Source of the DNA: a virus
Direction: 5' to 3' (one strand)
IMG/VR virus record: IMGVR_UViG_3300024265_000023
Span: 1 to 41,908 of that record
Length of the DNA: 41,908 nucleotides
In this document: one piece after another, positions 10,240-29,680 of the stretch
Numbering within the stretch: position 1 is the first letter of the stretch
How the letters are laid out: each line of letters starts with the position of its first letter
Position numbers and translations under genes: made by a program
The notes under the pieces: model-generated
Database searches by the model: none
Told to the model about the DNA's origin: nothing
What the model saw: the letters and a program-made list of their open reading frames with translations, nothing else

Positions 10240-12780
10240 TTAATTAATATTTATATCCCACACTTTCTGAGTTATTAAATCAGCACCATCAGCACATTCA
10301 CCAGTAACTTTCATAAGCACATCTGCTGTCATATCCTCAGTGCCTTGTGCGCTTGATTGCTGTCTAATAGCAGTCGCATTAAAACCAATACAAGTTATTC
10401 TTTGCTGTGAAGAACTATTCCTTTGAATAGTTACCTGTGCTGACCACTCATTAGTGTCATTATTCGCGGGATGAATAGAGAAAGTGTAAGATCCAAAATG
10501 AAAAATAATAGTTTTATTTCCGTTACTGTTTGTTATATCACCGGCAATCGTAACTTTGATCGTTTGTCCCACTCCAACAGTACCAGCTTTTATCGTTGTG
10601 GTTCTGAGGATATCTTCTCCGGTACCGGATGTTGAAACAGATCCTTGCACCCCACGCTGAGTCAAATCACCCGTATCAACAATATAAGTGGCAGCCTCAG
10701 AGTAATTGATACCTACTTCAACAGAGTTTCCAGCATTCGAATCAATTGTGATACCACGTGTAAGAACATTTGTTGCAGTTTTTCCACCTCTTACAAATGA
10801 GTTACCTCCGATAAAGCCTATATTATTGACACCACCTGTAATTAGGGTTCCTATCGCAGAAGCAAAAGCGGCTCCCTTGGAATCCGTCCATGGATCTGTT
10901 ATTACATTGCCCCTTACGCCGAAACCATAGTTATCATTAAATAATAAAATGCCATAGGTTCCACATTCTATTATCTGATTAGTTGAAAGATCAATTCCTT
11001 TGGTGTATTGAATTAAAATACCAGCACTGGATGATGAGTCTTCATCATTATACCCTCTTAAGAAATTCCCTTCTATTGACCCCGTAGCAAGACCAGAAGC
11101 ATAACCTACAAGCCGTATGCCCATTTCTGTTGTGCCCGCTGTGCTTCCACTGTCTGCGTTATTTCCTTTTATAAGGGTATCTATAGGCTCAAAAGTGGCG
11201 GCGGCTCCGTCAGTGCTTGTAGCAACATTTATAGCTCTTTGACCACCTTTTATAATGTTACCCTCAATAGAGGATCTATTTGTAGACCTAAAATCTATAG
11301 CAGTCCAAGGGAAAGTGTTGATAATATTTTTCGTTACATTTATATCCGACGATCTTGGATAGACACCTAAAGTATCAATATGCCTCGTTATTGTGATTCC
11401 ATAAGAAGCGTGGAACTCACCTGTCATATTAAAAATATTATTCTTATGAACACTACCTCTTTGCCCGCACCAATCAGAGAAACCAGCATAATTTATATTG
11501 CTAATAAAATTATTAACAACCTCATAATCTTGCACAAATTGATACCAAATCGCCCTACCACCAAAATTATCAATTATACAATTTCTAACATGCACGGTTG
11601 ATAAATAGTTAGACGAATCAGCACCGTGGGCGTGGATTGCATTCTCGCTATTAAAGAACGAGGCGTTTTGCAAACCTGACACTTTTATATTTTCAACAGT
11701 TACATTTGATGCCGTTATATCTAAACCTGTAGTGTTTGATGTCACTTGCCTTATTTCGGACACTTCACCATCCCCTGTAATGAAAAGAGATTTATCAATC
11801 AGTATAGGAGATGATATCTTATATTGAGCCAAACCACCTGAGATATGCAAATTCCCACCAATTATCAAAGAGGCAACAGCCGAGTTTATTGCTATTGTAT
11901 CATCAATTAAAGTCTCGTTATTATTAGCACCGAACCAATAAGGAATTGACTTTTTAAGTCCTTCAACAACAAGATTTTCGCCAAATATTTGATAATCACC
12001 TGCTATCAATGGTCCATTTATATTTAATATTTCAGGTCCACCACCGGCTACACCATCAATTTTCCCCCCTTGCGTTATCCATAATGTCAAAGTTGATGGA
12101 GTAGTTACCGTCACTCCGTCCGCTATAATTGTTAAAACTGGAATCTGCAAAATTGTTGGAGATGATCCAATTGCTGCAACCGCTGATGCCAAATCGTCGT
12201 AATTACCAATCCAATCTATTGTCGGAACCGAAACTGACCCAGCTGAAAAATTTTTAAATCCATCAAGCAAACTATTCCAGCCGATTACATTATTAACTGT
12301 TGGATTCGGTAAAGTATAATCAAAACCAGGGTCAATGATAGCAGGCGCTATGGGGGTTCTACTTAACAATGCCCTATTATCTCTACTTTGTAGGGTTGCC
12401 TTATCAAGCGCCGATTCATAGAGTTCAGCAGGCGTGGCTCTATTATTCTTTAAGTCAAGTTCCTGGGTTAAGGAGGTCAATCCGTCAATTGTAAGGGTTC
12501 CGTCGTCAGGGGCTGTATTTGCAACAACCTCAAAATTTATTATTGTATACCCTTCATCACCCAAAGCGTCCTGGACCCAATCTTCTTGGCTTCCGTCCAA
12601 ATCATTAATAAATGTTACCGTTAAATCCGATTCATCAATATAATCAAAAGTGATGGGGAAATTGGTTGTTAACCCATTTGCAGTATATTGTTTCGGGGGT
12701 TGAATCGTGTTTGTGATTGTGGCAAAAGCGATACCGGTGAATAGAAACAATGTCAAAATGACATATAATATTTTTTTCAT
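10240..12780 (-). CDS. Tail spike/fibre with a right-handed beta-helix-like repeat region and an N-terminal signal peptide
   Basis: 846 aa. MKKILYVILTLFLFTGIAFA signal. Repeated N/G-rich beta-helix-like turns (NVTVENIKVSG, VRNCIIDNFGG, NNFISNINYAG, GNIIKGG). Last gene of the tail module. Confidence 0.6.
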   Translation of the reverse strand: MKKILYVILTLFLFTGIAFATITNTIQPPKQYTANGLTTNFPITFDYIDESDLTVTFINDLDGSQEDWVQDALGDEGYTIINFEVVANTAPDDGTLTIDGLTSLTQELDLKNNRATPAELYESALDKATLQSRDNRALLSRTPIAPAIIDPGFDYTLPNPTVNNVIGWNSLLDGFKNFSAGSVSVPTIDWIGNYDDLASAVAAIGSSPTILQIPVLTIIADGVTVTTPSTLTLWITQGGKIDGVAGGGPEILNINGPLIAGDYQIFGENLVVEGLKKSIPYWFGANNNETLIDDTIAINSAVASLIIGGNLHISGGLAQYKISSPILIDKSLFITGDGEVSEIRQVTSNTTGLDITASNVTVENIKVSGLQNASFFNSENAIHAHGADSSNYLSTVHVRNCIIDNFGGRAIWYQFVQDYEVVNNFISNINYAGFSDWCGQRGSVHKNNIFNMTGEFHASYGITITRHIDTLGVYPRSSDINVTKNIINTFPWTAIDFRSTNRSSIEGNIIKGGQRAINVATSTDGAAATFEPIDTLIKGNNADSGSTAGTTEMGIRLVGYASGLATGSIEGNFLRGYNDEDSSSSAGILIQYTKGIDLSTNQIIECGTYGILLFNDNYGFGVRGNVITDPWTDSKGAAFASAIGTLITGGVNNIGFIGGNSFVRGGKTATNVLTRGITIDSNAGNSVEVGINYSEAATYIVDTGDLTQRGVQGSVSTSGTGEDILRTTTIKAGTVGVGQTIKVTIAGDITNSNGNKTIIFHFGSYTFSIHPANNDTNEWSAQVTIQRNSSSQQRITCIGFNATAIRQQSSAQGTEDMTADVLMKVTGECADGADLITQKVWDININ

Positions 12781-12795
12781 ATTCTCTCCCTGGTT

Positions 12796-13944
12796 TTATA
12801 AAAAATTATTGTCAACAAAAATCATATCATAGGCGCCTATCACCCCTACAGTTGCACTAACTTCATCACACACAATTATAATATCTGACTTTTCAGGTAT
12901 TGGTACTGGAACACCATAGCCATAAATCCAGAATTGACCCCCGTTTGCTATCACTTCCACTTGACCATTGACAGCATATATTCCCGTTGCACCATTATTC
13001 AATCTTGCCCGCCATGTGAATTGTGCCGAGGCGGGGGTAGCAGGATTACCACCGGAGCTTATCCCTACGTAGCCCTTTAGGAAAAGACCTGTCTTTCCAC
13101 TGGGAATAGTGAAATTAGCTTGTTGTGTGCGGCCGTCCCCAGCTGTAATGAATATACCGGCGTTTGTGGTGGCATCAACTTCAACGGAAATATTACCCTC
13201 ATTCATAGCTGATGCACCGGCATGCAATACTGTACCACGATATAATCTTACGAATCCTGTCGATATCGCAACATCAGTTTGTCCATTGAGGATAATTGTC
13301 TCAGTTGCAACGGTCCAGGTTAAACCTGAAGCCGTCAAGCCTTCAATATTTATAACACCAGCACCGGTATCCCCGCTTGATGCAATTCTATAAGTATCGC
13401 CTGATTCATTCGGCTTAGATGTTAAAGATTTATGGGCTACAGTGGACCCGGTTGTCATTGTGGTATGGGTAAGCTCAGTTTCAGAAGTTACTACTTTCAC
13501 GGTTCCAAATTCTCCATTGGTGTCATTTATGACAATATCACCAACCGCCACCCCGTCCGATACAAATGTGGCACCGGAGTCAACCAATGTTGTTAAACTT
13601 CCACCTGTTGCCGTCCCAGAACTTACGAGGGACCCGACATCATCAACATCAGTTGAAACGGCTTCAACAGTCTGGTTTGTTGTAAAATAAAAATCATATA
13701 TCCCGCCGCCGCCCCAAACATCTTCCGGATCGGTTGCAACTTCGACAACAGGATTATGACCATATTTATTTATATGTGAATACCCGGGGATTTGACCAAG
13801 GGCAACCCTCAATAAAAAATCTGCCTGGAAGGAATTGGCGGTTGACCGCAGCCCACCGCTATTAATTGCTATGCCTTCAGCAAACGAAAAGCTGACAGAC
13901 ATAAATAAAATAAAAAAGGATAATAAAAGTTTTTTAATAATCAT
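12796..13944 (-). CDS. Tail-module protein (382 aa) with an N-terminal signal peptide
   Basis: MIIKKLLLSFFILFMSVSFSFA signal. G/T/S-rich beta-type composition. ATGA overlap with the upstream giant gene. Confidence 0.5.
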   Translation of the reverse strand: MIIKKLLLSFFILFMSVSFSFAEGIAINSGGLRSTANSFQADFLLRVALGQIPGYSHINKYGHNPVVEVATDPEDVWGGGGIYDFYFTTNQTVEAVSTDVDDVGSLVSSGTATGGSLTTLVDSGATFVSDGVAVGDIVINDTNGEFGTVKVVTSETELTHTTMTTGSTVAHKSLTSKPNESGDTYRIASSGDTGAGVINIEGLTASGLTWTVATETIILNGQTDVAISTGFVRLYRGTVLHAGASAMNEGNISVEVDATTNAGIFITAGDGRTQQANFTIPSGKTGLFLKGYVGISSGGNPATPASAQFTWRARLNNGATGIYAVNGQVEVIANGGQFWIYGYGVPVPIPEKSDIIIVCDEVSATVGVIGAYDMIFVDNNFL

Positions 13945-16900
13945 CGTTTTTTCCTTATTTTAGGATTTCTTACCAGGACATTTATTGCCGTTCCGTCACC
14001 GTTTTCATATTGTTCAATACCTTGATCAATTTCTCTAATTATTTTAGGGAATGGTGTTCTGACCCCATAAGCCAACATTTCCAGCAATGCAAGTAAAGAC
14101 CTTTCAAGTTTTTCATCATCATCAAGATCTTCTATCCACTTTATTGTATCATTTATTAATTTAATGGCCAGTTTAGAACCGATCAATACAGGAGAATCAA
14201 AGGGATCCCTCTGGAAACCCTTAAATATTCCGGCCACGGCCCCGGCAAACTCCCTGATCAGGAATATCCCTATAAACTGATATGTGATGACGTCCAATAC
14301 AACATCTTCCGGATCTGGTTCTTCTCCCCACATTAAAGCAAACATCAGATTCATCATAATTGGAGGCGCTACCTGCTCCATGGTGACTATTGAAGTATAT
14401 CTTGCAAAACTTATTGATCCATTTTTCCATGCATTATAATGATATCTCTGCCTGGCTCCCATCTTTGCCGTGAAAGTTGAAAATAAAGTAAAGAATCGAT
14501 GCCAACCTTTTCGGCTTCTCTGTAGATGGTTCAAGTCTATTTCCTGTGAAGAAGGCTGGCTATTCCTGATCTGTGAGTCTGCATACCTAACAGCCTTGGC
14601 CATGTCACCATTATTTATCTTCATTCCCTTCTGATATGCACCCTGCCAGGATGGAAAAACCGTAGCAAAGTCCATTGCCCGGATGAACATAAACATTGCA
14701 TTTTGAACATCATCCCATGTCTGACCTCTAAAACTTTTTTTCCCGGGCTTGATCAAACCAATATTCCTTCTCAGATCCCGGTCAACATTATCAGATCGTG
14801 TTCTCATAAATGGACTTGCTGCCCTCATTCCATTATATGCGTCCCATGGGGAAACAAGAACCTTACCAATTCCACGCATATACCAGAAAACACCATTTGC
14901 TGAATTGCCATCACCAACATCATTAAGGAAACCAAAAATTGAAAATGGTTGTTTTAATGCTACTGACCTGCTTAATCCAAGAGTGTATGATGTTGCTCTC
15001 TGGGCTTCCCTTAAAGCTATGGTATCCATATGTTCAAGTCTGATGGCGTTCGGCCTTGCAATCTCAGCGAGTGCCGGCCGCATCATTTCATAAAGCGCCT
15101 GGCCTTCTGCTTTTTCCACCGCATCCTGATATTGTTCACTTCTGATTATTTTATTTACATCATTAACAGCTTCCGAATGGGTGATATATCTGATTGAAGT
15201 ATTTACATGGGTAAAAAGAACATTCAAATCAAGTTTCACAGGAAGAGAAACCTTACCTGTTGCCCTGGACTGCAGCATACCATTCTTAGGATTTGCCGGC
15301 TGAAACATTGCCTCTGATGAATTCATGAAGTCTTCTTTTTCTGTCCATTCTCCAATCTGAGTACTCAACGACCTATCAAAAAGAATTGGATAATACCCAC
15401 CTTTTAATTTGAGACCGGTTGGAGTTATAAACTCTTCAGCTTCAACCTTTTTTTGATGAAAATCATTTATCCTGAAAAAAGCAGCGTCCAGCTGTGGCCA
15501 CAACGAATTAACAATATCCCAAATCTCTTGAACATTCTTCCAGTCTTGTTCATTTAAAATACTTGTCAGGGCATCAACATCATTATTAGTTATCAAATAT
15601 CCACCGGTTATTCTTTGCAGGTTCTGACTGTTGCCCCTATTTAATGCAATGGCCAAAATTCTTTCAAATGTCCAGAATCTTTCTTTCCCCCTTTTCATGT
15701 TTTCAGGGACCGGAACACCGGTATCAACAATTCTTTTTGGAAAATCGTTTACTCTTTTTGAAAAATATTCAGCAATAGGATTTAATTTATCAGAGAATTC
15801 CTGAACAAGATCAATAAATTCATTATCTGCATCAAATAGCCTGTTGTTTATAGCCTCTTCGTTCGGCCCGATCTTGCCCTTTATGCTCACAAAACCGTCA
15901 AGCCTACGGGAAATAAATGGTAAAGACTCCTGGGTTGCAAAAAATCTCCTGGTTGCCGTTGTTAATTTTTCAAGGATAGAATCTTCAGGAAAAATTTTCT
16001 TTGTTCTTTTTCTTGCTCTCATCGGCTGAACGAGCTCAGTGACTTTTTCCTGAACTAAAGTTTTACCATCTGACAATCGATCCTTTTTAACTCTGCGGCC
16101 TCTTTTTTCAAAATATCTAATAAGGTCATCAAGCTCAGTGAATTGATCCACTGTTAAATTTTTATAATTTGTTTCAAAAACATCAAGCATAAACATATCT
16201 GAATATGTTGGGACCATCTCCCACATTTCAATATCAACACCTTCAGTAAGTTTTGCAAAAAATTCGCCAATGGCCGGACGATCTTGATCAAGTACAAGAT
16301 TTCTCTTGGTTAATCCAAACCTTTGCATAACCCTGACGGCCTGCTGTTTATATTCATTCTTAATGGTCTTTGACTTAATTATCCTGGAAGATCTTTTTAT
16401 AAGTTGCTCAACTAATTTCCTCTGCTTGATTGATAATCCGGATAACTCATAATTTAATCTGACCTTTTCGTTTGCTTCTGATGCTTCACCAAACTTGCCC
16501 TGCTGTGCTTTCTTCCGTTCAATTCTTGAATATTTTTTTAATGATGCAAGGTAACTATTAGTTCTAATGGCTTTTTTGATCTGATAATCAGCAAATAATT
16601 TTTTAGCAAAAATCTTAAATGTTTTCGCAGGTGCCACATCAGTAACACCCCTGTTTTCATACTTTGCCATGATGGAAAGGAATTCACCATATTCCTTTGT
16701 GCCGATCAAATAATCATTCGGCTGAAACTTCTCATCATTCTCCATCTGCTGTCTTTGAACATAATTATCAATGAATGCCTGCATTGGAACAACACTTGCC
16801 AGATCTTCAACCATGGCATCAACGGTATCATAACCAAAATCAAGTGCAGCTTCAGGAAGGTTTTGACCGTCTTTTCTTACAACTCTGGGCACTGTCTTTG

Positions 16901-19900
16901 GAATTTTATCTATGTTTTCTTTACCATAAATATAATCCATCTGCTGTTTGTTCAGGCCTTTGCCTTTGGACATCGCCAATAATTTTTGATATTCAGGCCG
17001 TTTTAATGCTATTTCCCGGCCTTTCTCTTTCCAGGCTTTACGCTTAGACCGATTATCTTTATTTCTATCCTTCACAAGTTGCTGTTCAGCCTTGAATATC
17101 GCATCTTTAAGAAGACGCTTCATGAATTCCCGATCTTCAGGAACAATCCCCAGGGAATCCATGGTTGCCTTTGAAGGCATTTCCATCTGATTTTCCTGAA
17201 CAGCAAGATCTGTTTCAACCTCAGCAACAAGCATCCTGTCAAATACTTGTCTGATTTCGTCATTCAATTCAACATCAAGGGCATTTATGGATTTGTAGAC
17301 AGAAAGAAGCCATTTCCTAAATCGTTCAAACGAATTTTCAAGATCTTTAGATGGGGCCTTTCCTTCAAATAGGTAAGCTTCAAATCCCCGGGCAAACTTT
17401 TCCTGCTGTTCTGTTGTAAAAGATTCCTGACCCTTTTCAAATCCGAGCCATTCTTTAATGGTATTATTATCATTGATGAATTGTTCCGATGCGGTTCCGA
17501 TATCAACCACGGATTGCATTTCATTAAGGAATAGGTGCCCTGTCTCATGGAGAAGGGTTGAAAGATCTGCTTTGCCTTTGAATATGGTGATTATGTTTTC
17601 TTCAGGGGTGATGGTGATGGCGCCTTTTACTTTTTTTTCTTTTTCTTGCCGGAAGATATTTGGATCAGTCGGATCAAATGTGCCTATATTTTCTGAAGCT
17701 GATTTAATTTGTTCCGGATTAAAAGCAACATAAGTAATCTGATCATCATCAACTAACTTTAATCCATCAAAACCTCTACCTATAAGCTCATCTATGCCAA
17801 ACTTATCATATTCTTTCCAACCAGCTGGATTTTGTATAGAAATGAAAGCGTCAACAATAACACCCTTACCCTGTGCGCCAACTTCTCCCCCTTCTATTTT
17901 TGACTTGTCGTTTGTAAACCAAAAAGTTCCACCAATACTCCTTTCTGGATCAAACGCTTCGAATCTCTCTGCCGTGCCATGAAAGACTACCTCTGGATTA
18001 CCTTCATCGTCAACGACCTTGGAATCTTTAAAGAAGGCTTTGAATTCTTCTGTCTCTGGTTGTATTGGTTCAGCTTGGAATAAATCAAATGGTTCAACTA
18101 TTTTTCCTAATTCACTTTCAGAAAGATCAGTCTCAAGAACCTCAATTTCCTGATCCTCATTTGCCTCAAATGTTCCTTCAAGACCACGAAATGTCACAAC
18201 ACCATCATCAACACTTTCAATCTCATAGACATCCCAACCACTTGCGCCCTTACCACTAAGAATAGTAACCTTGCTGCCCTGTTCAATATCAATGGCTTTT
18301 ATATTAACATAGTTTCCTGCAGGCGGTTCTTCAGCCTCAAACTCTTCTTCCTCTTGAATTCTTGCCTCTATTTCAGGAATAACGCCGGTTACACCCCTTT
18401 TCAAAGCGTCTGGCTGAGTTCTTAACACTTCAAGAAGATCTTCATCCTGCTGAAGCCATCCTTCTCTCTTTAACTGCTCTTCAGCCAAGTCAATAGGGAA
18501 ACCGCCTTTTTTAAAAAGAAACTTTGCACCAACCGATAAGCTTTTCACCTCCCCCTTAAAATTTAAAGGAGCAATTCCACCAAATTGTTTTATTCTACCT
18601 CTTAATGTTGTAACGCCTGGACGTGGTTTTTTTCTTGGAGCCGGGATAAACTCAGAACCTTTTTCAAAGGCTTCCAGGGCTTGACCTCTTAATCTTATTC
18701 GTGAAACAGTATCAACCCTATTCTGTCCCTCAAGCGCCAACCTTTCAGAAAATCTTTCAATCAATGTCCCGAACTCTTCAACCTGTTCAGGAATAACACC
18801 TGCAGCCGCCGCCTCATCTTTTATCCTTGTGAGCTCAGTCTGAAACCCCGTTTCATCCTCAATGGCATCACTGAACCTATCCGCGATATCAGCAAGACTG
18901 CCTTCAATATCAATTTCGTCAACTTGCCTTTGACTCATTGCCCCGGGCGCCTGCTTTAAATCATCAATGATAAAATTTCTTTCCTCTGGTGATAACCTGG
19001 CATGGACCTTACTCATCGTAACTGGTATGTCATGGCCTGAACTAATTTCTTCAATAGCTTCTTCAGGATCCACCCCAAGTTTTTCCATGATCTCCGTCAC
19101 GACTTCCGGGTTTTCCTGAAAAAGAACCTGAGCCCCATCAGAAGAAATAAAACCGGTTTCGCCAAGGCCAAGGATATTTAAAAACTTTTCAGAGTTCTCC
19201 GGGGATCGCTCTTTTGTTTTTGAATTATCCATGGCAGTGCCAACCCTGGAATGAAGGTCTTTAAAGTCTGCAGCATTCTTCTTATTGGTTTCAAAGTCTT
19301 CAATTTCTTTTTTTTGGGAAACAAAAGCAGTGCCCCCGCCAAGGATAAATGCCCCGGGGATAACATCAATGTTCCGTGCCCCTTCAATAACCTGATCAAT
19401 TATTTCCTGGGGAGTGTCCTCTTCTGCCAGGGCTTTTATCAAGGCTTGTGTCGGTTCTTCTGCCCATTCAGTGGCAGCCTCAACCCCACCTTTTACAAAG
19501 GACCTGAATATTCTTGATTTTAAATTTTTGACAGGGGTTTTATCAAGGATAGCATCAAGACCAATCCTGTTCAGGTATGCAGACACACCACCAAAGGAAA
19601 TGGCAGCATTCAAGGCAGTTACCCGACTAACCTCTTTTTCTTCCATCATTTCATTAAAAAGAGCAGTTCCTTCCTGAAGACCACCAACCAAACCGGCAAC
19701 CGCTGTTGATCCACCTGTTGCATAAGCTGTTGCAAATATCGGAATCATAGAAGAAAGAGCATCCCCTGTATTCTGGATTAACCATTCAGGGTTTGCAAGA
19801 AGCTGAGGGTTATCAATGAGTCTGAGACCTTTGATATCTTCGGACAATCCAAGATTAAAGCCTAAGAACTCATCATCACCCTGCAGGACTTGCCCCTGTG

Positions 19901-22225: not shown

Positions 22226-22742
22226 TTGAAGAGTCCCTTTTTTTAAATATGGAAAAACCTTTTGATTCTGGAAGTTTTGATAATGCAGTCAATATCTTTG
22301 TTCCGGTTGCACCCCTTGATTCAAGGCTTTCAAGCTCAAACGCCTGGGCTTCAAAGCTTGTTCTTAACTTTTCAATGCCACCGCTTACTCTAATGACTGC
22401 AGATTCCTGGGCAAATGTGGTTATGATATCCCGTTCAATATCAAAGTTTGTTTCAGAGGCAACAGAGAAACCGGAAGCCCCTGATATAGCCCGGGCATTT
22501 CCTAAAACCCTGGATTCTTCTTCATCAAGTATTTTAAGCTGTTGATCTATCTTTAAATCAATGAACTGGCCTTCATATCTTGCCATGACAGCGTTGTGAT
22601 CTGATATTGCCCTGTCCAGCTTACCGGCTTCAAAGATACTCACGATAGAACCAAGATCAGCAACAATGCTTGCATAGCCTGATATAGTTGAAAGATTTTT
22701 TGATAAATTACTGCCAGGTGTAAATTTATGTCCCTTTGGCAT
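22200..22742 (-). CDS. Virion-module protein (180 aa), function unknown
   Basis: ORF track. Lies between tail genes. Confidence 0.5.
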   Translation of the reverse strand: MPKGHKFTPGSNLSKNLSTISGYASIVADLGSIVSIFEAGKLDRAISDHNAVMARYEGQFIDLKIDQQLKILDEEESRVLGNARAISGASGFSVASETNFDIERDIITTFAQESAVIRVSGGIEKLRTSFEAQAFELESLESRGATGTKILTALSKLPESKGFSIFKKRDSSNGSKNTSS

Positions 22743-22747
22743 TATTG

Positions 22748-25009
22748 TTATTCCCCCTCAAAATCCATAGTTAAAGAAAGAACTGTTAAGGGCAATGGTT
22801 GATCCTGCCTGATATAAACTGAAGGGTCCCTAGAGTATTCCCCATCAAAAGATATATCATGCGTGAACCCATCAAATAAATCACCTGCCAGGCCCAATGG
22901 CACCTGATCTGAGATAAAGTCGTAATCAGAAAGATTATCTTCATTCGGACCGGTCTTCATACCAAGGGTTTTATAAAGCTGGACAATTATATTTGTGATT
23001 CTCATATTCTCTGCGAAATTATCACCACCTTGATTCTGAACATATGGAGGCAATGTCCTGATTTGTGAAAAATAGAACAGCCCGGCATGAACAACACTCG
23101 CGCCTGAATCAAGTGTTATCTGACTATTTTCAACAGTCTTTTCAGCAACCGGCGCCCCGTCTGCAAGGATTGTCAATTCTTCACCTTCAAGATGAGCCAG
23201 GCCTGTTAAAACTGTTTGATTCAGTGCTGATGTTGCGGATTCAATTTGTTTGTATTCCACAAAGGAAACCGGAGTTCCACCATCGGTCAATTCAAATGTA
23301 TTGGCAGCAGCATTGGCCACCGTTAAAGTTTCACCATTTAAAGTTTGAAAATCCTCTTCACCTGAGATATCAAGATCAATTGATCTGAAAGTTACCACAT
23401 CACCATTACTGTAAGGATGCCCCGTAAAATTGACAATTCCAGGGTCAGTATGATCAATAGATTCAATATCAAGCCTGTTATCGAGAGAAAGACCACTATC
23501 AACATAAAAAGCGTCGAGAGTATCATCGCCTTTAAATATATCATGAATCTTTTCAATATATCTTACCTCTGAGCTATCAATCGTTCTTTTGATGGAAAGC
23601 CATACCTCATCCTGTGTGGAACCCGGGATTGATGCAACAGATTCAACAATACCATCGCCACCTATTTCATGCCGGTGCCATCCAAAAACTTCATGCTCTG
23701 GGTAATATGTCAGGCCCAATAAAAACCCATCATCCCGGACACACCATAAAATTTTATATGGTTCTCTTTGGAATGATAGCTGTGTTATCGTGTTGGTCCT
23801 GGTTAAGTGTTCTGCAAGGACTGTCAGGTCTTCACCTTCAAGCCTGTCAGCAGTGAAAGAATGGATCAACTCCCTTAAAACTTTATTTTGTCTTTGAAGA
23901 TAAAGAAGAGTGCCGCCAATAGGCTCCGGGAATACGTCGCTTGTTCCATTGAAAGATCCGGGCACGGCCTGCTTACTCAATGCTGTGATAGGACCGTCAC
24001 CGGAAGAACTTGTCAACCAGTATTCTGATCCTGTTGTTCCAACAATGAATTTCCTGGTTGAATCAATCCACTGGATAGCATTCGCCTGCTTTGCTGCAAT
24101 ATCAAGATTCAAGGCATCATCAGCAACTAATGGAGAAGAAACACCGTGATCATTATAAATTCCAACCTTTGAACCCCACAACCGCATGGGGAAAGAAGGG
24201 CTTGATGCCCACCACAACCTTTCATTATCAAAAGTCAGGGTTGACGGAAAGTCATTTGCTCCCCATTCTGCCGGCTCAGCTGTAAAAGAAATATCAGCAA
24301 GAGCCCACGAGGTATCGCCTGATCTTGTCAACGTAGCAGGCGCATGATCTGAATGAGCAATGTAAATGACATCATTAATAGATGCAAGATCAATATCAAA
24401 TAATTCTGATTCAATGTATGTGGTGGTTACCTGGAAGGGTTTATCTGATATCCCGCCACTGATATAAGTTGTGAATCCAATTCCATTAATGCCTGATAAT
24501 TCAAAGTCAGCACCTGATACATTTGCAACTGTATATTCCTGTTCATTGAGTTCGGTCATTCCCAAAACACCGGAAATCCTGACAACCTCACCATTCACAA
24601 AAGTATTTGTTGCCGTTATGACAACCGGGTTTGTTTTTGACGCTCCGGTGACAGTGGCAGTCTTTTCAATTATCTGGCCGCCATCCTTATAAAACCTGAT
24701 ATAATTATTACCCCATTCCAGGATATAGGCCTGGACCTTGGAATATTCATATCCATAAAGCCTTACTTCTTTGCTGTGATCTTTTACCCGGGCAATAAAC
24801 TCTGTACCGTCACGTCTGGAAGCCGGACCATGGGGAAGGGCAGTGAAATTATAAAGTTCTTTGACACCATTGGCGTATTTTTCAAGCCTTGGCCGGCCGT
24901 ATATTTGCTCGGATAATTCCCCGGCATTAAACGATGTCTGGGTAACAGCAAAAAGAAAGGATGGTATTAATAAGGAAAGGACTATTAAAAACGAAAGTAT
25001 TTTTTTCAT
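22748..25009 (-). CDS. Putative tail tubular/nozzle protein (gp12-like by size and position) with an N-terminal signal-like segment
   Basis: 753 aa from ATG 25009, which overlaps the upstream stop (ATGA). MKKILSFLIVLSLLIPSFLFA, then TSFNAGELSEQIYGRPRLEKYANG, which from memory resembles podovirus tail proteins. Confidence 0.45.
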   Translation of the reverse strand: MKKILSFLIVLSLLIPSFLFAVTQTSFNAGELSEQIYGRPRLEKYANGVKELYNFTALPHGPASRRDGTEFIARVKDHSKEVRLYGYEYSKVQAYILEWGNNYIRFYKDGGQIIEKTATVTGASKTNPVVITATNTFVNGEVVRISGVLGMTELNEQEYTVANVSGADFELSGINGIGFTTYISGGISDKPFQVTTTYIESELFDIDLASINDVIYIAHSDHAPATLTRSGDTSWALADISFTAEPAEWGANDFPSTLTFDNERLWWASSPSFPMRLWGSKVGIYNDHGVSSPLVADDALNLDIAAKQANAIQWIDSTRKFIVGTTGSEYWLTSSSGDGPITALSKQAVPGSFNGTSDVFPEPIGGTLLYLQRQNKVLRELIHSFTADRLEGEDLTVLAEHLTRTNTITQLSFQREPYKILWCVRDDGFLLGLTYYPEHEVFGWHRHEIGGDGIVESVASIPGSTQDEVWLSIKRTIDSSEVRYIEKIHDIFKGDDTLDAFYVDSGLSLDNRLDIESIDHTDPGIVNFTGHPYSNGDVVTFRSIDLDISGEEDFQTLNGETLTVANAAANTFELTDGGTPVSFVEYKQIESATSALNQTVLTGLAHLEGEELTILADGAPVAEKTVENSQITLDSGASVVHAGLFYFSQIRTLPPYVQNQGGDNFAENMRITNIIVQLYKTLGMKTGPNEDNLSDYDFISDQVPLGLAGDLFDGFTHDISFDGEYSRDPSVYIRQDQPLPLTVLSLTMDFEGE

Positions 25010-25617
25010 GTTGATTGTGTCCCTATTATCCTGCTTTGCAACCAAGTATCATTTTCATCCGTGTGGGCACCCTTCTCTGTCTCTGTTGGGTTGCTCTCTT
25101 CTGCATCAAGACCCTTCGATTCCTCAAGAGTCAGTAGATAAATTTGATACCAATCTACAACTTTGGTCCCTTTCTTCGCTAATGGAACCTGCCATTTTGA
25201 TCTAAGCCTTGCAACAACAACGTTCTGAAACCATTCAGGCCACTTTGTGGTATCAACAATCCTTCTGATATACTCAATCTTGACAGTTTCTTGGTTTATA
25301 AAAAGGCTGTTATCCCTGATTTCATAATTAGTCCCGATAGACTTTTCAGTCTCTTCTTTAGACATTTTAATGTAATCAGAAGGAAGGGCAAATTTAAATT
25401 CCCATTTAGGATCAATAATATCATCTGACTCCAGGGCAAGGGATGCCCAATGCTTTGCAAATCCCCAATTAAACTTCCCAAGAAGCCTGTCACGGTTGCT
25501 ATCCCAATAATCTTGAGCAAGCTTTGCTTCTTTTGATGTCTGATTATCAAAATCCGACACTGGCTGGCCGCCAAGATCTCTAAAAGCAATAGTTGCTATT
25601 TCGTTTTTACTTGCCAT
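25006..25617 (-). CDS. Putative tail adaptor/tubular protein A-like (203 aa)
   Basis: Size and position directly upstream of the 753-aa gene. The N-terminus IATIAFRDLGGQPVSDFDNQTSKEAKLAQDYWDSNRDRLLGKFNWGFA resembles that family from memory. Confidence 0.4.
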   Translation of the reverse strand: MASKNEIATIAFRDLGGQPVSDFDNQTSKEAKLAQDYWDSNRDRLLGKFNWGFAKHWASLALESDDIIDPKWEFKFALPSDYIKMSKEETEKSIGTNYEIRDNSLFINQETVKIEYIRRIVDTTKWPEWFQNVVVARLRSKWQVPLAKKGTKVVDWYQIYLLTLEESKGLDAEESNPTETEKGAHTDENDTWLQSRIIGTQST

Positions 25618-25647
25618 GGTATCTCACCTCATACAATAGCAGAAGGG

Positions 25648-26226: not shown

Positions 26227-26237
26227 AATTTCTCCTT

Positions 26238-26708: not shown

Positions 26709-26757
26709 ATTCCTCCTTTTTTATTTAAAATACATTCAACTTAATACAATAAAAAGA

Positions 26758-29136
26758 TTAATTTCCGATCCTTAAAATACCGTTGCGGATTAAGTCACCC
26801 GGCTGACAACCGATGCATAGTATTTGAGGCATACGAGATTTCAATTCATATGCCCCCATATCCAGTGCATCTCCATATTTTGATAAAACATCACCACTGG
26901 CATCTGTGATAACATTACCATTTAAATCTGTGACTGCGCTTGAATAAGGTGTTGAGCCATTTGGCGTACCAACATCTCTTGCCGAGGATAATTTTGTTAA
27001 ATTGAAATTAGATTTATCATCAACCGCAGTATATGCCCTGCGTTCACTATGCCCATCACCACTTGTTGTTTCTGTGCTAAGTGGTTCATACCAATCCCAA
27101 AAGTCCCTTTGACTACCAACTTTTAGACCCTTGTTTTCATAGAGCTTAAAAATATCATGTACTGTCTCAGCGGCTTCCTGCTCAGCAATCTCATCTATTA
27201 CGTATCCATGGTACATAATATTGTAGGCTCCACCTATTGTGGCAACGTAGCTCGCCTTACCATTTGCTTCTGATTCGGGAATTCCTGAAATAGATGAAAA
27301 CTCTATACCAAACCGATTTAAATCATATAGATAAATACCGCTATCATCAGGCATATATCCGTTTTTCCCTCTAGCAGTAAAATAACCCGCTTCTTTTTCT
27401 GCATCAAGAACATCATCGTCGATACAATTATACGGACCCACAAATGAAACAACTTCATATGGTTCACCAATAATAGCTTCGATAATATCTTCCAAGGAAT
27501 CCTTGCCGTACTTAAGCTCGAACCAAAGGTATTCCGTTTTATCTACATCTAAATCAAGTGAACCTGATCCTGCAATATTTGTATTAATATCGGTAAGCAC
27601 TATTGCGCCGGTTTGCCCATTAATACTATTCTCCGTTCTGGGTGTCGCTGTTGCTGTCCAATCAGCTAATGCCGAAATATCCGCGGCAAGCTCGATACCA
27701 GTTTTAAATTCAAAGCTGCCACCGATCACGAGATTTATAGCCGGGTAAGTTCCTCCCCCTTGACCAGAAGAACGCCCAAGGGTGATTGTGCCATTCCAGT
27801 CTGTATAATCTTTGTAAATGCCATTCCAATCAGGACTCCCACCGTTAGTGGTATCCGCACTAATTAATACACTAAGGCTTTCTCCACTATTGTTTGTTAA
27901 GTTCATCATCCCGGTTATATCAGTTAAACAGGAATGTGCGTAAGCATGGCTACCGATATCATGACCATCTTCTATCACTTCGACGATTTTTGATTCATAT
28001 GTAGCATTAGCAATTTCAATCCATTTATATGTATCAATAGCCCATGTAAAATGCCATCCTCGGTCATCACATTGGTCTTGTAAAAACTGGAAACCTTCGG
28101 TTTCTTCTACCGAATATGCGTCATCCATTGTGAGTGTGATATATCCAGTTCTGGGTAATTGTTTTAGATAGGCATAGGACTCGACGGTGTTAGTCGGAGT
28201 AATTTCAGTGTCCCACGAAGTATCACCGCTTAAACGGGTGTAAACAACATTGTAAGATGCGGTTACATTTGAACATGCACCATAAACACTTTGTCGCCCC
28301 TGACCTTCGTTTAAACCAATCCCAAAAAAAATATTGTTTGAAATTGTACTGTTTGAAGCATGGGCAAAATTTATGCCATACCATGTCGTTCCTGAAATTA
28401 TATTGTTATAAAAATTAGTCGTATTGTTTGTGTTAGAATCAGTTATATAATATCCATTTGAAAGATAATTAGATGAGGGCCTCATCTCGTTATAATAAAT
28501 TTCAAAATCTGAATCACCTATTGATACGCTTGCATCAGAAGAACCTGTTCCTTTTATTCCAGCAAATATATTGTATCTAAGAACCCCCGAAGAATTTGCA
28601 AGTGCTAAACTTTTTTCCTGGTTATCTTTAAAAATACACCACTCAACTATTGCCCCTGTTGTGGTAGAAATCAGAACAGCCTGAGCTGTTGATGTCGAAT
28701 TTCGAACCGTTAAATATTTGAGATTAAACCCTGTTTTGCCAATCGAATATATCCACCGACCGCTTGCGGCTCCGTCGTTCAGATCCACAATAGTATTAAT
28801 AGGATTGTCCGTACCACCCTGAACAGTTATATTGTCTGATTTTACCCCATTATAACTAATTCCACCATCAGACCACAGCCACGCTCCGGGTTGAATTTGA
28901 ATGATATCGCCAGCAGATGTTGCAGCATTGATAGCTCCATCAATTGTATCATATACAGTTGCAGATCCGCTGCCGCATTCGCGTGTTATGGGGTCGTAAT
29001 CAGTATCAGATGGGGTGGAACAGGAAGAGCTGTGCCCCAATGCAGCCTTGTCCGCATAGTAAGTAGCACACCAAACCTGCGGAACCAGGAAAAAGAAAAC
29101 CAGCAGGATTGATATCATTTGTTTAAATATTTTCAT
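26758..29136 (-). CDS. Tail spike with a signal peptide, a beta-helix repeat region and a CE4 (NodB-type) polysaccharide deacetylase-like domain
   Basis: MKIFKQMISILLVFFFLVPQVWC signal. Beta-helix-like repeats (YNIFAG, YNNIISG, SNNIFFG). ITLTMDDA plus GHDIGSHAYAH (27934-28131) match NodB motifs 1 and 2. Confidence 0.55.
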   Translation of the reverse strand: MKIFKQMISILLVFFFLVPQVWCATYYADKAALGHSSSCSTPSDTDYDPITRECGSGSATVYDTIDGAINAATSAGDIIQIQPGAWLWSDGGISYNGVKSDNITVQGGTDNPINTIVDLNDGAASGRWIYSIGKTGFNLKYLTVRNSTSTAQAVLISTTTGAIVEWCIFKDNQEKSLALANSSGVLRYNIFAGIKGTGSSDASVSIGDSDFEIYYNEMRPSSNYLSNGYYITDSNTNNTTNFYNNIISGTTWYGINFAHASNSTISNNIFFGIGLNEGQGRQSVYGACSNVTASYNVVYTRLSGDTSWDTEITPTNTVESYAYLKQLPRTGYITLTMDDAYSVEETEGFQFLQDQCDDRGWHFTWAIDTYKWIEIANATYESKIVEVIEDGHDIGSHAYAHSCLTDITGMMNLTNNSGESLSVLISADTTNGGSPDWNGIYKDYTDWNGTITLGRSSGQGGGTYPAINLVIGGSFEFKTGIELAADISALADWTATATPRTENSINGQTGAIVLTDINTNIAGSGSLDLDVDKTEYLWFELKYGKDSLEDIIEAIIGEPYEVVSFVGPYNCIDDDVLDAEKEAGYFTARGKNGYMPDDSGIYLYDLNRFGIEFSSISGIPESEANGKASYVATIGGAYNIMYHGYVIDEIAEQEAAETVHDIFKLYENKGLKVGSQRDFWDWYEPLSTETTSGDGHSERRAYTAVDDKSNFNLTKLSSARDVGTPNGSTPYSSAVTDLNGNVITDASGDVLSKYGDALDMGAYELKSRMPQILCIGCQPGDLIRNGILRIGN

Positions 29137-29178
29137 GAATCTTTATCCTCAATAAAGTTGAACAGAGGACCTTTTATA

Positions 29179-29583
29179 TTACCTCAAACCAAGAATAGCA
29201 ATTTTTTGAGAAACCTCGGCCTTGATAAAACAAATAACTTCGCCGGCTTCTTTTCCCATTGCAATTTCTATACCGGATACATAAAAGAAGTCTCCGTCAA
29301 TACCTGTCTTTGATATCTGAAATTCAACAACATTATCAATATGAGTATAATCTGATGCAGTCCCATTATGTACCTGAATAGCTATGTGCCTCAAGTTCTC
29401 AATGGTACTTGGTATTGATATTGCCTGCCACGCTCCCGTTGTTGAAATGTGTGCAATTGTTTCTATTGCAGTCCCTTCAACCGTGTCATTTGTACGCTGG
29501 ATAGCATATGCAGATGCTATAAGAACTAATAACGCAAATGCAATTACAAACAATGCATTAAATTTTTTTGTCAAAAGTTTCAT
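29179..29583 (-). CDS. Small protein with a signal peptide or membrane anchor (134 aa)
   Basis: N-terminus MKLLTKKFNALFVIAFALLVLIASAYA. Confidence 0.55.
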   Translation of the reverse strand: MKLLTKKFNALFVIAFALLVLIASAYAIQRTNDTVEGTAIETIAHISTTGAWQAISIPSTIENLRHIAIQVHNGTASDYTHIDNVVEFQISKTGIDGDFFYVSGIEIAMGKEAGEVICFIKAEVSQKIAILGLR

Positions 29584-29633
29584 AATAATTCCTTATAAAA
29601 ACATATAAGTCAGGCGTAAAACAATAACGCCAC

Positions 29634-29662
29634 AAATAAAAGGTATCCAACTATAAGATACC
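29634..29662 (-). terminator. Weak rho-independent terminator candidate
   Basis: Minus sense: GGTATC-ttatagttg-GATACC followed by TTTTATTT, 19 nt after the stop at 29681. Confidence 0.35.
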
Positions 29663-29680
29663 AATTTTTAACCAATTGTT

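What the first reader, a model, noticed from the sequence alone, without database searches (positions are those of the whole stretch)
10240..29583. Sec-type signal peptides on five proteins of the tail module
Five proteins begin with a K-rich n-region, a hydrophobic core of 15 to 20 residues and an AxA-like site. They are 846 aa (MKKILYVILTLFLFTGIAFA), 382 aa (MIIKKLLLSFFILFMSVSFSFA), 753 aa (MKKILSFLIVLSLLIPSFLFA), 792 aa (MKIFKQMISILLVFFFLVPQVWC) and 134 aa (MKLLTKKFNALFVIAFALLVLIASAYA). Tailed-phage virions assemble in the cytoplasm, so export signals on spikes, fibres and a nozzle-like protein are unexpected. One explanation is that these segments are uncleaved membrane anchors that stage tail assembly at the membrane. 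Another is that some of these proteins are secreted free enzymes, for example depolymerases acting ahead of lysis. A third is that this phage group uses a hydrophobic N-terminal helix as a structural plug-in.
Basis: partly seen in the sequence, partly recalled or inferred. Interest (0 to 1): 0.65.

Follow-up and report, generated by a model that had tools for sequence, protein, structure and literature searches.

The report
Export signals on phage tail proteins
A temperate T7-like phage, and a few unrelated relatives, put classical bacterial secretion signals on the outer parts of the tail (nozzle, fibres, spikes) but not on the inner parts, which suggests those outer parts are made outside the cytoplasm, something not described for tailed phages.

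Summary
All five minus-strand genes start at an ATG with a Shine-Dalgarno site or an ATGA stop/start overlap. Each encodes an n-h-c signal-peptide-like N-terminus. Two are core virion parts by homology to a solved tail (PDB 8ck1): the nozzle (753 aa) and a T7-type fibre (846 aa). In both, homology begins just after the hydrophobic segment.

About 250 nozzle homologues start directly at the conserved motif. Only three or four lineages carry the roughly 20-residue extension. In one pair of nozzles 72% identical, it is a clean 20-codon insertion.

Within a genome the trait is concerted. In loci with a signal-bearing nozzle, 13 of 41 other large ORFs have a signal. In loci without one, 3 of 554 do (p = 5e-14). 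The pattern is nested: fibres alone, or nozzle plus fibres, never the adaptor or internal proteins.

The segments diverge faster than the mature parts and vary in length, as cleavable signal peptides do.

Best reading (about 0.4): genuine Sec signals send the distal tail to the periplasm, and it joins filled heads once the holin breaches the inner membrane. Export and cleavage are untested. The host is unknown. I found no precedent in the literature.

The parts
10240..12780 (-). Tail fibre/spike, 846 aa: signal-like N-terminus, T7 gp17-type N-terminal adaptor domain, right-handed beta-helix
   Evidence: phrog_1640 tail protein, E 2.4e-12, residues 22-129. Pfam Beta_helix, and weak Phage_T7_tail from residue 24. 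PDB 8ck1 tail fibre, E 1.4e-8, query residues 29-143 against chain residues 9-128. Homologues P0123-P0126 keep the signal plus adaptor domain but have swapped C-termini.
12721..12780 (-). Signal-like segment of the fibre: MKKILYVILTLFLFTGIAFA | TITNT
   Evidence: GGGAGAG RBS 4 nt upstream of the ATG. Conserved in P0123 and P0124. Replaced by a different 26-aa signal in P0125 and P0126.
12796..13944 (-). Fibre-like jelly-roll protein, 382 aa (phrog_8198 family, function unknown)
   Evidence: phrog_8198, E 5e-26. 3982 representative homologues. AF2 model with pLDDT 88: N-terminal helix 2-16, disordered linker, beta domains. C-terminal half matches cyanomyovirus proteins annotated 'tail fiber' or 'virion structural protein'.
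13879..13944 (-). Signal-like segment of the 382-aa protein: MIIKKLLLSFFILFMSVSFSFA | EGIAI
   Evidence: ATGA overlap with the stop of the 2220-aa gene, AAGGA RBS. 20 of the 150 best family representatives also carry a signal-like N-terminus. Relatives L093, L094 and L096 keep a signal of different sequence and length.
22748..25009 (-). Tail nozzle (tail tubular protein B), 753 aa
   Evidence: phrog_376, E 2.6e-160. PDB 8ck1_A 'Tail Nozzle', E 6.8e-81, with homology from query residue 23 to chain residue 13. 201 cultured-phage records match, and all 30 listed alignments start at query residues 21-26.
24947..25009 (-). Signal-like segment of the nozzle: MKKILSFLIVLSLLIPSFLFA | VTQTSFNAGELS
   Evidence: ATGA overlap with the adaptor gene's stop. 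No alternative in-frame start exists. The 85%-identical relative has conservative hydrophobic replacements in the h-region and synonymous changes across IPSFLFA-VTQTS. Cleavage would regenerate the canonical N-terminus seen in about 250 homologues.
26758..29136 (-). Beta-helix plus CE4 polysaccharide deacetylase, 792 aa; spike-like or free enzyme
   Evidence: Pfam Polysacc_deac_1, 28.5 bits against a cutoff of 23.1, and weak Beta_helix. The only homologue, P0122 (1070 aa, in another phage's structural module), has a 340-aa N-terminal domain instead of a signal. The gene is absent from relative L005 and so belongs to an inserted cassette.
29068..29136 (-). Signal-like segment of the 792-aa protein: MKIFKQMISILLVFFFLVPQVWC | ATYYAD
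   Evidence: GAGGA RBS. Flagged by the heuristic.
29179..29583 (-). Small protein, 134 aa: long N-terminal hydrophobic helix plus an 8-strand beta-sandwich; function unknown
   Evidence: No Pfam or PHROG hit. AF2 single-sequence model, pLDDT 69, helix 3-34 then beta strands. No significant fold match. A homologue exists in L005.
29503..29583 (-). Signal-like (or signal-anchor) segment of the 134-aa protein: MKLLTKKFNALFVIAFALLVLIASAYA | IQRTN
   Evidence: AAGGA RBS. The L005 homologue has an unrelated 30-aa signal (MIIPLAINKNRNLIFLLLSCFVLSTTLAFA). Identity is 17% in the signal and 74% in the mature part.
25006..25617 (-). Tail adaptor (tail tubular protein A), 203 aa; no signal (contrast)
   Evidence: phrog_394, E 1.5e-30. 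Starts MASKNEIATIAF. The adaptors in L001, L096 and L097 also lack a signal.
13941..22742 (-). Internal/ejection proteins (180, 540 and 2220 aa); no signals (contrast)
   Evidence: phrog_418 internal virion protein, and phrog_10475. LPD22 and ART-PolyVal domains in the 2220-aa protein. N-termini are hydrophilic.
39572..39967 (-). Endolysin (Peptidase_M15_3), 131 aa, with no signal or SAR domain; implies a canonical large-hole holin
   Evidence: Pfam PF08291, E 8e-7. phrog_894. Sequence. Candidate single-TM holins lie at 37618-37800 and 37813-38184.

Best explanation
The five N-termini are genuine, translated and selected Sec-type (SPase I-like) signal peptides. They were added as discrete N-terminal extensions of about 20 residues to the distal, host-contacting parts of a T7-like tail: the nozzle, the T7-type fibre, a jelly-roll fibre-like protein, a beta-helix/deacetylase enzyme and a small beta-sandwich protein. 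This step I regard as well supported.

Inferred mechanism: late in infection these proteins are targeted to SecYEG, translocated, and most likely cleaved. The distal tail then folds, and perhaps pre-assembles, in the periplasm. Capsid, portal, adaptor and ejection proteins assemble and package DNA in the cytoplasm. The two halves would meet only when the holin opens large lesions in the inner membrane, or at lysis. The nozzle would then dock on the adaptor and the fibres on the nozzle-adaptor junction. This resembles head-tail joining in long-tailed phages and in-vitro tail complementation in T3/T7 (from my own knowledge, not checked here).

Possible pay-offs (speculative): a periplasmic folding environment for secreted-type beta-helix and jelly-roll proteins; enzymatic stripping or modification of envelope glycans from within before release; or keeping complete, ejection-competent virions from forming inside the cell.
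For: 1. Real starts. Each gene has an ATG with an RBS or ATGA coupling, and the nozzle has no alternative in-frame start. JGI calls the same starts.

2. Signal-peptide anatomy. Each has a K-rich n-region, an h-core, and a c-region with a helix breaker and small residues at -3 and -1. Flanking charges predict N-in/C-out. The first six mature residues have a mean net charge of -0.39 over 23 signal-bearing tail proteins, whereas 54% of plain nozzles have K or R in residues 2-6.

3. The extension sits exactly in front of the canonical N-terminus. Homology to the solved nozzle and fibre of 8ck1 starts at residues 23 and 29. In plain nozzles the conserved motif lies 8-11 residues from the start in 73 of 76 loci. 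P0104 (with signal) and P0111 (without) are 72% identical and differ by a clean 20-codon insertion after the Met.

4. The segments evolve like signal peptides. They diverge faster than the mature parts, vary in length, and change conservatively within the hydrophobic class, with synonymous changes around the cleavage site.

5. The trait is recurrent and concerted. The window clade comprises the window, L093/L176 and L005+L094. The L001 clade is independent. In the IMG/VR phages L096 and L097 the nozzle, T7-like fibre, spikes and 382-family protein all carry signals, while the adaptor and gp14-like protein do not. In loci with a signal-bearing nozzle, 13 of 41 other ORFs of at least 200 aa are signal-like, against 3 of 554 in loci without one (Fisher p = 5e-14).

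6. The pattern is nested and matches assembly order. Fibres alone carry the signal in L175 and L031, or nozzle plus fibres do. The adaptor, portal, capsid and ejection proteins never do.

7. The endolysin has no signal or SAR domain. A large-hole holin that merges the two compartments is therefore expected.
Against: - Export and cleavage are not shown. SignalP and DeepTMHMM were not available, and my predictor is a home-made heuristic.
- No tailed phage is known to assemble any tail part outside the cytoplasm. DNA-filled heads would have to stay sealed by the adaptor alone until lysis.
- The time between holin triggering and dispersal is short.
- The proposed benefits are weak. Cysteines are not enriched in the nozzle (1 Cys) or the 382-aa protein (1 Cys); only the 792-aa protein has 10.
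- The h-region of the 134-aa protein is long (about 21 residues), so it may be an uncleaved anchor.
- The host is unknown, so its envelope and Sec specificity are unknown.
- The lineages in the Fisher test are not phylogenetically independent; effectively there are 3 or 4 lineages.
Confidence: 0.4

Rival explanations
1. Dual fate. The signals are real but only part of each protein pool is exported. The exported fraction acts as free periplasmic or envelope-associated enzymes or receptor-binding decoys, for receptor destruction, superinfection exclusion or easier release. The fraction that folds or oligomerises in the cytoplasm before Sec engagement builds virions in the normal way.
For: The 792-aa beta-helix/CE4 deacetylase has a signal where its only homologue has a virion-type N-terminal domain, so a free enzyme is plausible. 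It lies in an inserted, moron-like cassette that is absent from L005. Within the 382-aa family three forms coexist: plain, signal-bearing, and with a long N-terminal domain. That suggests the module is used in more than one location. Fibres alone carry the signal in L175 and L031.
Against: A signal on the nozzle has no obvious use as a decoy or enzyme, yet it recurs in 3-4 lineages and is conserved. The h-regions are strongly hydrophobic (mean Kyte-Doolittle 2.3-3.2). From general knowledge, such signals favour co-translational SRP targeting and near-complete export. Virion assembly would then depend on leakage.
Confidence: 0.2
2. Retained hydrophobic N-termini. The segments are not cleaved. 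They act as membrane anchors that concentrate distal tail parts at the inner membrane during assembly. Alternatively, they stay in the virion around the nozzle-adaptor junction, where nozzle and fibre N-termini converge, and work as membrane-active peptides or a hydrophobic collar during adsorption and penetration.
For: All the signal-bearing proteins are those whose N-termini would converge at the tail hub in T7-type tails (fibre adaptor domain and nozzle N-terminus). The uncharged stretches are long for Gram-negative signal peptides (16-21 residues). AF2 models a continuous helix over residues 3-34 of the 134-aa protein. From general knowledge, membrane-associated assembly has a precedent in T4 prohead initiation on the inner membrane, and membrane-active tail peptides have one in the phi29 tail knob.
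Against: Rapid sequence turnover and length variation of 15-30 residues do not fit a fixed structural element. The -3/-1 small residues, the helix breakers and the neutral or acidic early mature region are features of cleavage and translocation that an anchor does not need. The positive-inside rule puts the bulk of each protein in the periplasm, not the cytoplasm. Nozzles 72% identical work with or without the segment.
Confidence: 0.2
3. Artefact. The starts are mis-called, or the hydrophobic K/I/L/F-rich N-termini arise by chance in an AT-rich genome, and the real proteins begin downstream.
For: The window is AT-rich (GC about 38%), which favours K, I, L and F codons. No proteomic data exist.
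Against: The nozzle has no in-frame alternative start before its conserved motif. Every ATG has an RBS or translational coupling. Purifying selection is visible in the segment. Relatives of the same GC lack the extension. L096 and L097 show the trait at 45-46% GC. The trait is concerted within genomes.
Confidence: 0.03

Closest known systems
Sec/SPase I signal peptides on tailed-phage accessory proteins (for example the T4 antiholin RI, whose cleavable signal is described in PMC8385771, listed; also spanins and lysogenic-conversion lipoproteins)
   Same: The same n-h-c architecture is used by a tailed phage to send its own proteins across the inner membrane. The window also encodes a Tat-signal protein at 6202-6585.
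   Different: Those proteins are lysis regulators or envelope effectors, not virion parts. Here the signal sits on the nozzle and the fibre adaptor domain, which must end up attached to a capsid that is filled in the cytoplasm.
Filamentous phage (Inoviridae) coat proteins pIII and pVIII
   Same: Virion structural proteins are made with cleavable Sec signals and wait in or at the inner membrane until assembly (general knowledge; see PMC4823517, listed).
   Different: Inoviruses assemble by extrusion through the envelope and have no capsid, portal or terminase. The window is a complete tailed phage with terminase, portal, HK97-type capsid, T7-like tail and a holin-endolysin lysis cassette.
T7/T3-type podovirus tail (gp11 adaptor, gp12 nozzle, gp17 fibre); solved relative: Carin-1 tail, PDB 8ck1
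   Same: Gene order and homology match for the adaptor, nozzle, gp14-like protein and large ejection proteins, and for a fibre with the T7 N-terminal adaptor domain.
   Different: The canonical proteins start directly at the conserved N-terminus and assemble in the cytoplasm. Here the nozzle and fibres carry a pre-sequence of about 20 residues.
SAR (signal-anchor-release) endolysins
   Same: An N-terminal hydrophobic segment is used by a phage protein for Sec-dependent membrane insertion.
   Different: From general knowledge, SAR domains are weakly hydrophobic and rich in Gly, Ala and Ser, and are released rather than cleaved. These h-regions are strongly hydrophobic and rich in L, I and F (Kyte-Doolittle 2.3-3.2), and end in an SPase I-type site. 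The window's endolysin has no such domain.

Membership tests
Sec-type (SPase I) cleavable signal peptide | Short, positively charged n-region | tested here: met
   MKK, MIIKK, MKK, MKIFK and MKLLTKK give net +2 to +3.
Sec-type (SPase I) cleavable signal peptide | Hydrophobic h-region with no charged residues | tested here: met
   Uncharged runs of 12-16 residues with mean Kyte-Doolittle 2.3-3.2. The total uncharged stretch of 16-21 residues is at the long end of the usual range.
Sec-type (SPase I) cleavable signal peptide | c-region with small residues at -3 and -1, a helix breaker at -4 to -6, and no Pro at +1 | tested here: met
   TGIAFA|T, SVSFSFA|E, PSFLFA|V, PQVWC|A and ASAYA|I. The same small-aromatic-small pattern occurs in relatives: AFG|T, LFA|G, CFA|T, GFS|A and CYA|S. 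In the nozzle and the fibre the site coincides with the canonical N-terminus as defined by homology, which is not a circular test.
Sec-type (SPase I) cleavable signal peptide | Score from a trained predictor (SignalP, DeepTMHMM, Phobius) | not testable with these tools
   No such predictor was available. A home-made heuristic was used instead.
Sec-type (SPase I) cleavable signal peptide | Demonstrated translocation and cleavage | not testable with these tools
   This needs PhoA or Bla fusions, N-terminal proteomics or cell fractionation.
Lipoprotein (SPase II) signal peptide | Lipobox [LVI][ASTVI][GAS]C with an invariant Cys at +1 | tested here: not met
   None of the five has a canonical lipobox. 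Where relatives have a Cys, it is not conserved between homologues (for example L097 MALAC|N against L096 MALIG|N, or AFC|G against VFG|G).
Tat signal peptide | Twin-arginine motif S/T-R-R-x-F-L-K | tested here: not met
   The motif is absent from all five proteins. It is present in a different protein at 6202-6585 (TRRNFLK; Pfam TAT_signal, E 4e-4, just below the curated cutoff).
T7-like tail nozzle (tail tubular protein B / gp12-type) | Full-length homology to nozzle proteins, including one solved in a virion | tested here: met
   phrog_376, E 2.6e-160. 8ck1_A 'Tail Nozzle', E 6.8e-81. 799 homologues at E no greater than 1e-20.
T7 gp17-type tail fibre | N-terminal adaptor domain homologous to T7-type fibres | tested here: met
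   phrog_1640, E 2.4e-12. 8ck1 tail fibre, E 1.4e-8 over residues 29-143. The Pfam Phage_T7_tail hit is weak (16 bits, below its cutoff of 25).
CE4 polysaccharide deacetylase (792-aa protein) | Pfam Polysacc_deac_1 domain above the gathering score | tested here: met
   28.5 bits against a cutoff of 23.1, covering residues 330-408, which is only part of the profile. Catalytic residues were not checked.

The most novel reading that the evidence does not exclude
A subset of T7-like podophages has split virion morphogenesis across the inner membrane. The distal tail (nozzle plus fibres and spikes) is exported by Sec, matures in the periplasm, and is joined to cytoplasmic DNA-filled heads bearing the adaptor only after the holin breaches the membrane. 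The compartment boundary always falls at a late step of the assembly pathway: fibres alone, or nozzle plus fibres. This would be the first case of extracytoplasmic assembly of part of a tailed-phage virion. It appears to have arisen several times.
Probability: 0.3. Interest if true: 0.9.

Novelty: new variant of a known kind. Interest (0 to 1): 0.75.

Why it matters
Textbook tailed-phage assembly is entirely cytoplasmic. If the nozzle and fibres really pass through Sec, three things follow.
- Head-tail completion would be coupled to the lysis programme.
- Tail enzymes could act on the envelope from inside before release.
- Virion parts would fold in an oxidising, chaperone-rich compartment.

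All of this is testable with simple fusions and N-terminal proteomics once a host is found.

There are practical consequences too. Annotation pipelines that treat a signal peptide as evidence against a structural role would mislabel these proteins. Heterologous expression of such fibres or depolymerases would need the pre-sequence removed or a periplasmic route. The on/off pairs found here (P0104 and P0111; the window and L091) give ready-made material for experiments.

Tried and rejected
- **Alternative starts.** I read the DNA at all five starts. The nozzle has no downstream in-frame start before its conserved motif.
- **Compositional artefact.** Relatives of the same GC lack the extension, and phages at 45% GC have it.
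- **Host identification.** An 80-locus scan of bacterial genomes with a nozzle profile found only distant prophages (at most 42% identity; Maridesulfovibrio, Proteus, many Alphaproteobacteria), none with the extension. There are no tRNAs and no megablast match to cultured phages. The host stays unknown. Strong Shine-Dalgarno sites argue against a Bacteroidota-type host for the window, although L113 looks Bacteroidota-like.
- **Disulfide or oxidative-folding rationale.** Cysteine counts do not support it for the nozzle or the 382-aa protein.
- **Lipoprotein signals.** Rejected: there is no conserved Cys.
- **Homology between the small signal-bearing proteins upstream of the adaptor gene** (window 134 aa against L001 228 aa). 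None beyond the signal itself.
- **Fold assignment.** The 382-aa model (pLDDT 88) has no meaningful PDB match and hits only uncharacterised phage proteins in BFVD. The 134-aa model has no significant match.
- **Phage-encoded export or peptidase genes.** None found by Pfam or PHROGs.
- **Literature.** Four full-text searches on signal peptides in tail proteins, plus one for the PDB code 8CK1, returned no report of signal peptides on nozzle or fibre proteins.
- **Other clusters of signal-like ORFs.** Clusters of signal-like ORFs in L131-L134 turned out to be small non-structural proteins of a different phage group. They are not counted as instances of this trait.
- **A correction to my own reading.** I first took L175 to have no signal-bearing tail protein. 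Its fibre ORF actually starts 384 nt upstream of the JGI call, with AGGAGG plus ATG and a clear signal.

Full report
**What the window is.** The 41.9-kb window is a whole contig; the same phage was assembled at 41.85-43.9 kb in other samples. It is a temperate podovirus.
- The plus-strand block carries SSB, DUF5131, an HNH endonuclease and a tyrosine integrase. A methyltransferase, a replication initiator and a DnaC-like loader lie on the minus strand near the left end.
- The long minus-strand block carries terminase, portal, a GP7-type capsid protein, the adaptor (tail tubular protein A, 203 aa) and the nozzle (tail tubular protein B, 753 aa). It continues with a gp14-like protein (180 aa), a 540-aa protein, a 2220-aa polyvalent ejection protein, a 382-aa protein and an 846-aa fibre.
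- A lysis cassette lies further along the minus strand, at 37.6-40 kb.

The five quoted N-termini are exact. Each gene starts at an ATG preceded by GGGAGAG, AAGGA or GAGGA, or at an ATGA stop/start overlap. JGI's independent gene calls give the same five lengths. In the nozzle there is no in-frame ATG, GTG or TTG between the ATG and the conserved motif QTSFNAGELS, so the hydrophobic segment has to be translated.

Each segment has the full signal-peptide anatomy. There is a K-rich n-region, an L/I/F-rich h-core, and a c-region with a P, G, S or T helix breaker. Small residues occupy -3 and -1 (AFA|T, SFA|E, LFA|V, VWC|A, AYA|I), followed by a neutral or acidic start of the mature part. These judgements rest on a home-made heuristic and on inspection. 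SignalP was not available.

**What the proteins are.**
- The 753-aa protein is the tail nozzle: phrog_376 at E 2.6e-160, and the solved 'Tail Nozzle' of PDB 8ck1 (the Carin-1 phage tail) at E 6.8e-81.
- The 846-aa protein has the T7-type fibre adaptor domain followed by a beta-helix: phrog_1640, and the 8ck1 tail fibre at E 1.4e-8.
- In both, homology to the solved virion proteins begins just after the hydrophobic segment (query residue 23 to chain residue 13; query residue 29 to chain residue 9).
- The 382-aa protein belongs to a very large uncharacterised phage family, phrog_8198, with 3982 representative sequences. A confident AF2 model (pLDDT 88) shows an N-terminal helix, a disordered linker and jelly-roll-like domains. 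It has no solved relative. Its C-terminal half matches cyanomyovirus proteins annotated as tail fibre or virion structural protein.
- The 792-aa protein is a beta-helix plus CE4 deacetylase. Its only homologue, in the structural module of another phage, has a 340-aa N-terminal domain where the window protein has the signal.
- The 134-aa protein has no known family. A modest model shows a long helix plus a beta-sandwich, and no significant fold match was found.

**The extension is an add-on that most relatives lack.** Of 120 nozzle homologues from the protein database, all but three begin 'M, then 2-9 residues, then FNAGELSP'. The exceptions are the window, an 85%-identical relative (P0002) and an unrelated-lineage protein (P0104). 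None of the prophage nozzles whose N-terminus could be read, among the 80 bacterial loci, has the extension. Nor does any of 76 IMG/VR nozzles. In 73 of those 76 the conserved motif lies 8-11 residues from the start, against 25-33 in the signal-bearing forms.

P0104 (with signal) and P0111 (without) are 72% identical. At the DNA level they differ by a clean 20-codon insertion right after the start codon. Predicted cleavage would regenerate the canonical N-terminus in every case.

**The extension evolves like a signal peptide.** Between the window and its relatives, the segments are usually far less conserved than the mature parts.

| Protein | Signal identity | Mature-part identity |
|---|---|---|
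| 134 aa | 17% | 74% |
| 382 aa | 41% | 66-77% |
| Fibre (vs P0125, P0126) | 19% | 57-58% |
| Nozzle | 62% | 85% |

The segments also vary in length from about 15 to 30 residues. In the nozzle the replacements are all hydrophobic-for-hydrophobic, while the c-region and the cleavage neighbourhood show synonymous changes. This argues for translation and for selection on physico-chemistry. It argues against a fixed structural helix.

**The trait is concerted within genomes and recurs across lineages.**
- Window clade. The trait is seen in the window, in L093/L176 (nozzle P0277, 380-aa protein, fibre P0123), and in L005+L094. In L005+L094 it is on the nozzle, a 139-aa protein, a 381-aa protein, the fibre and an extra 92-aa protein.
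- Nearest plain relatives. L091 and L089 (nozzles 53-54% identical, syntenic) have no signal-bearing proteins in the region held. They also lack the 134-aa and 792-aa genes.
- L001-L004. This independent lineage has signals on the nozzle and on a 228-aa fibre-like protein.
- L096 and L097. These two IMG/VR phages (GC 45-46%) are the clearest cases. The nozzle, a T7-type fibre or spikes (PHROG tail spike or virion structural hits), the 382-family protein and small neighbouring proteins all carry signals. The adaptor and the gp14-like protein do not.
- L095. Its 382-family protein is 67% identical to the window's but plain, and its other fibre-like proteins are plain too.

The counts bear this out. 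In loci with a signal-bearing nozzle, 13 of 41 other ORFs of at least 200 aa are signal-like. In 83 loci with a plain nozzle, 3 of 554 are (Fisher p = 5e-14). The lineages are not independent; there are effectively three or four.

**The pattern is nested.** Where only some tail proteins carry the signal, they are the fibres and not the nozzle. In L175 the fibre really starts at an AGGAGG-ATG 384 nt upstream of the JGI call, with MFKRYLFLILFLILSTSCWA, and the nozzle is plain. In L031 two fibre-like proteins carry signals and the nozzle is plain. The adaptor, portal, capsid and ejection proteins never carry one. The signal-bearing set is therefore always a terminal segment of the T7-type assembly order: portal, adaptor, nozzle, fibres. 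Within the 382-aa family, 20 of the 150 best representatives carry signal-like N-termini in several sequence styles.

**How it most likely works.** One step is close to shown: these are translated, selected, Sec-type pre-sequences added to the distal tail proteins. The rest is inferred. The K-rich N-flank and the neutral or acidic C-flank predict an N-in/C-out topology, so the bulk of each protein would be translocated. The site geometry suggests SPase I cleavage.

Capsid, portal, adaptor and ejection proteins have no signal. The simplest consistent scheme is therefore that the distal tail matures in the periplasm and meets the filled, adaptor-capped heads when the inner membrane is breached. 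The window's endolysin (M15 peptidase) has no signal or SAR domain. From general knowledge of lysis systems, that implies a large-hole holin that merges the two compartments. I give this scheme about 0.4.

The rivals are partial export with free-enzyme or decoy roles (0.2), retained hydrophobic anchors or membrane-active N-termini (0.2), and artefact (0.03). The remaining probability is unassigned. A benefit through disulfide formation is not supported by cysteine counts except for the 792-aa enzyme.

**Comparison with what is known.** Tailed phages are known to use Sec signals on lysis regulators and envelope effectors, for example T4 RI (PMC8385771, listed). Filamentous phages use them on coat proteins. 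SAR endolysins use weak signal anchors. Four full-text searches found no report of signals on a nozzle or a fibre adaptor domain. I file the finding as a new variant of a known kind: Sec signals on phage proteins. If export is confirmed, the implied assembly pathway would be categorically new.

**Limits.** There is no trained signal-peptide predictor, no proteomics, no cultured representative and no host assignment. Virion membership of the 792-aa and 134-aa proteins is unproven. The statistics rest on a heuristic and on related lineages.

Noticed in passing
window 6202-6585 (+): A 127-aa protein begins MNTTRRNFLKISGVLAILPALS, a twin-arginine (Tat) signal (Pfam TAT_signal, E 4e-4, just below its cutoff). 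The phage appears to use a second export route for a non-structural protein of unknown function.
   Followed up: partly
window 41401-41908: A 27-nt unit (CGATCTTAGCAGAATCACCAGATGAAC) is repeated 18.8 times at 94% identity and runs to the end of the contig. It creates a spurious repetitive ORF at 41347-41904. It could be iterons, a terminal repeat or an assembly edge.
   Followed up: partly
window 26238-29136 (-): The 792-aa beta-helix/deacetylase and a 156-aa protein with weak dual-specificity-phosphatase hits lie together between the 134-aa and 192-aa genes. Relative L005 lacks both, so they form an inserted cassette. L176 has the 156-aa gene and a 243-aa partial gene at the contig edge in the position of the 792-aa homologue.
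   Followed up: partly
window 38820-39967 (-): A class-3 lipase (Pfam Lipase_3, E 1.6e-15) overlaps the M15 endolysin gene. No recognisable spanin pair was seen. The lipase may be the outer-membrane or lipid-disrupting step of lysis.
   Followed up: no
window 13941-20603 (-): The 2220-aa ejection protein is a polyvalent protein with LPD22 and ART-PolyVal domains (JGI precomputed Pfam) and an HETGH metalloprotease-like motif. Homologues in relatives range from 2016 to more than 2800 aa.
   Followed up: no
window 29610-29684 (-): A 24-codon ORF (MKQLVKNWYLIVGYLLFVALLFYA) lies just upstream of the 134-aa gene and encodes a single hydrophobic helix. It is unannotated, and its coding status is unknown.
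   Followed up: no
window 29681-30460 (-): A 259-aa protein with 12 cysteines (4.6%) lies between the capsid region and the tail genes. It is conserved in the plain relative L091 (257 aa) and has no family hit.
   Followed up: no
L175 1450-5229 (+): The public gene call starts this fibre at 1834 and places a 135-aa gene on the opposite strand. The ORF actually starts at 1450 with AGGAGG plus ATG and a clear signal peptide, so the antisense call is probably spurious.
   Followed up: yes
L131-L134, roughly the first 3.5 kb of each locus (+): A different marine phage group carries a tight cluster of four to six small (114-289 aa) signal-peptide proteins next to non-structural genes. This secreted-protein moron cluster is unrelated to the tail trait.
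   Followed up: partly
BK067786.1 20118-20573 (hit H45): The C-terminal jelly-roll domain of the 382-aa family also matches ORF33 of a Nitrosopumilaceae spindle-shaped archaeal virus (31% identity, E 1e-7). The receptor-binding-type domain may be shared between bacterial and archaeal viruses.
   Followed up: no
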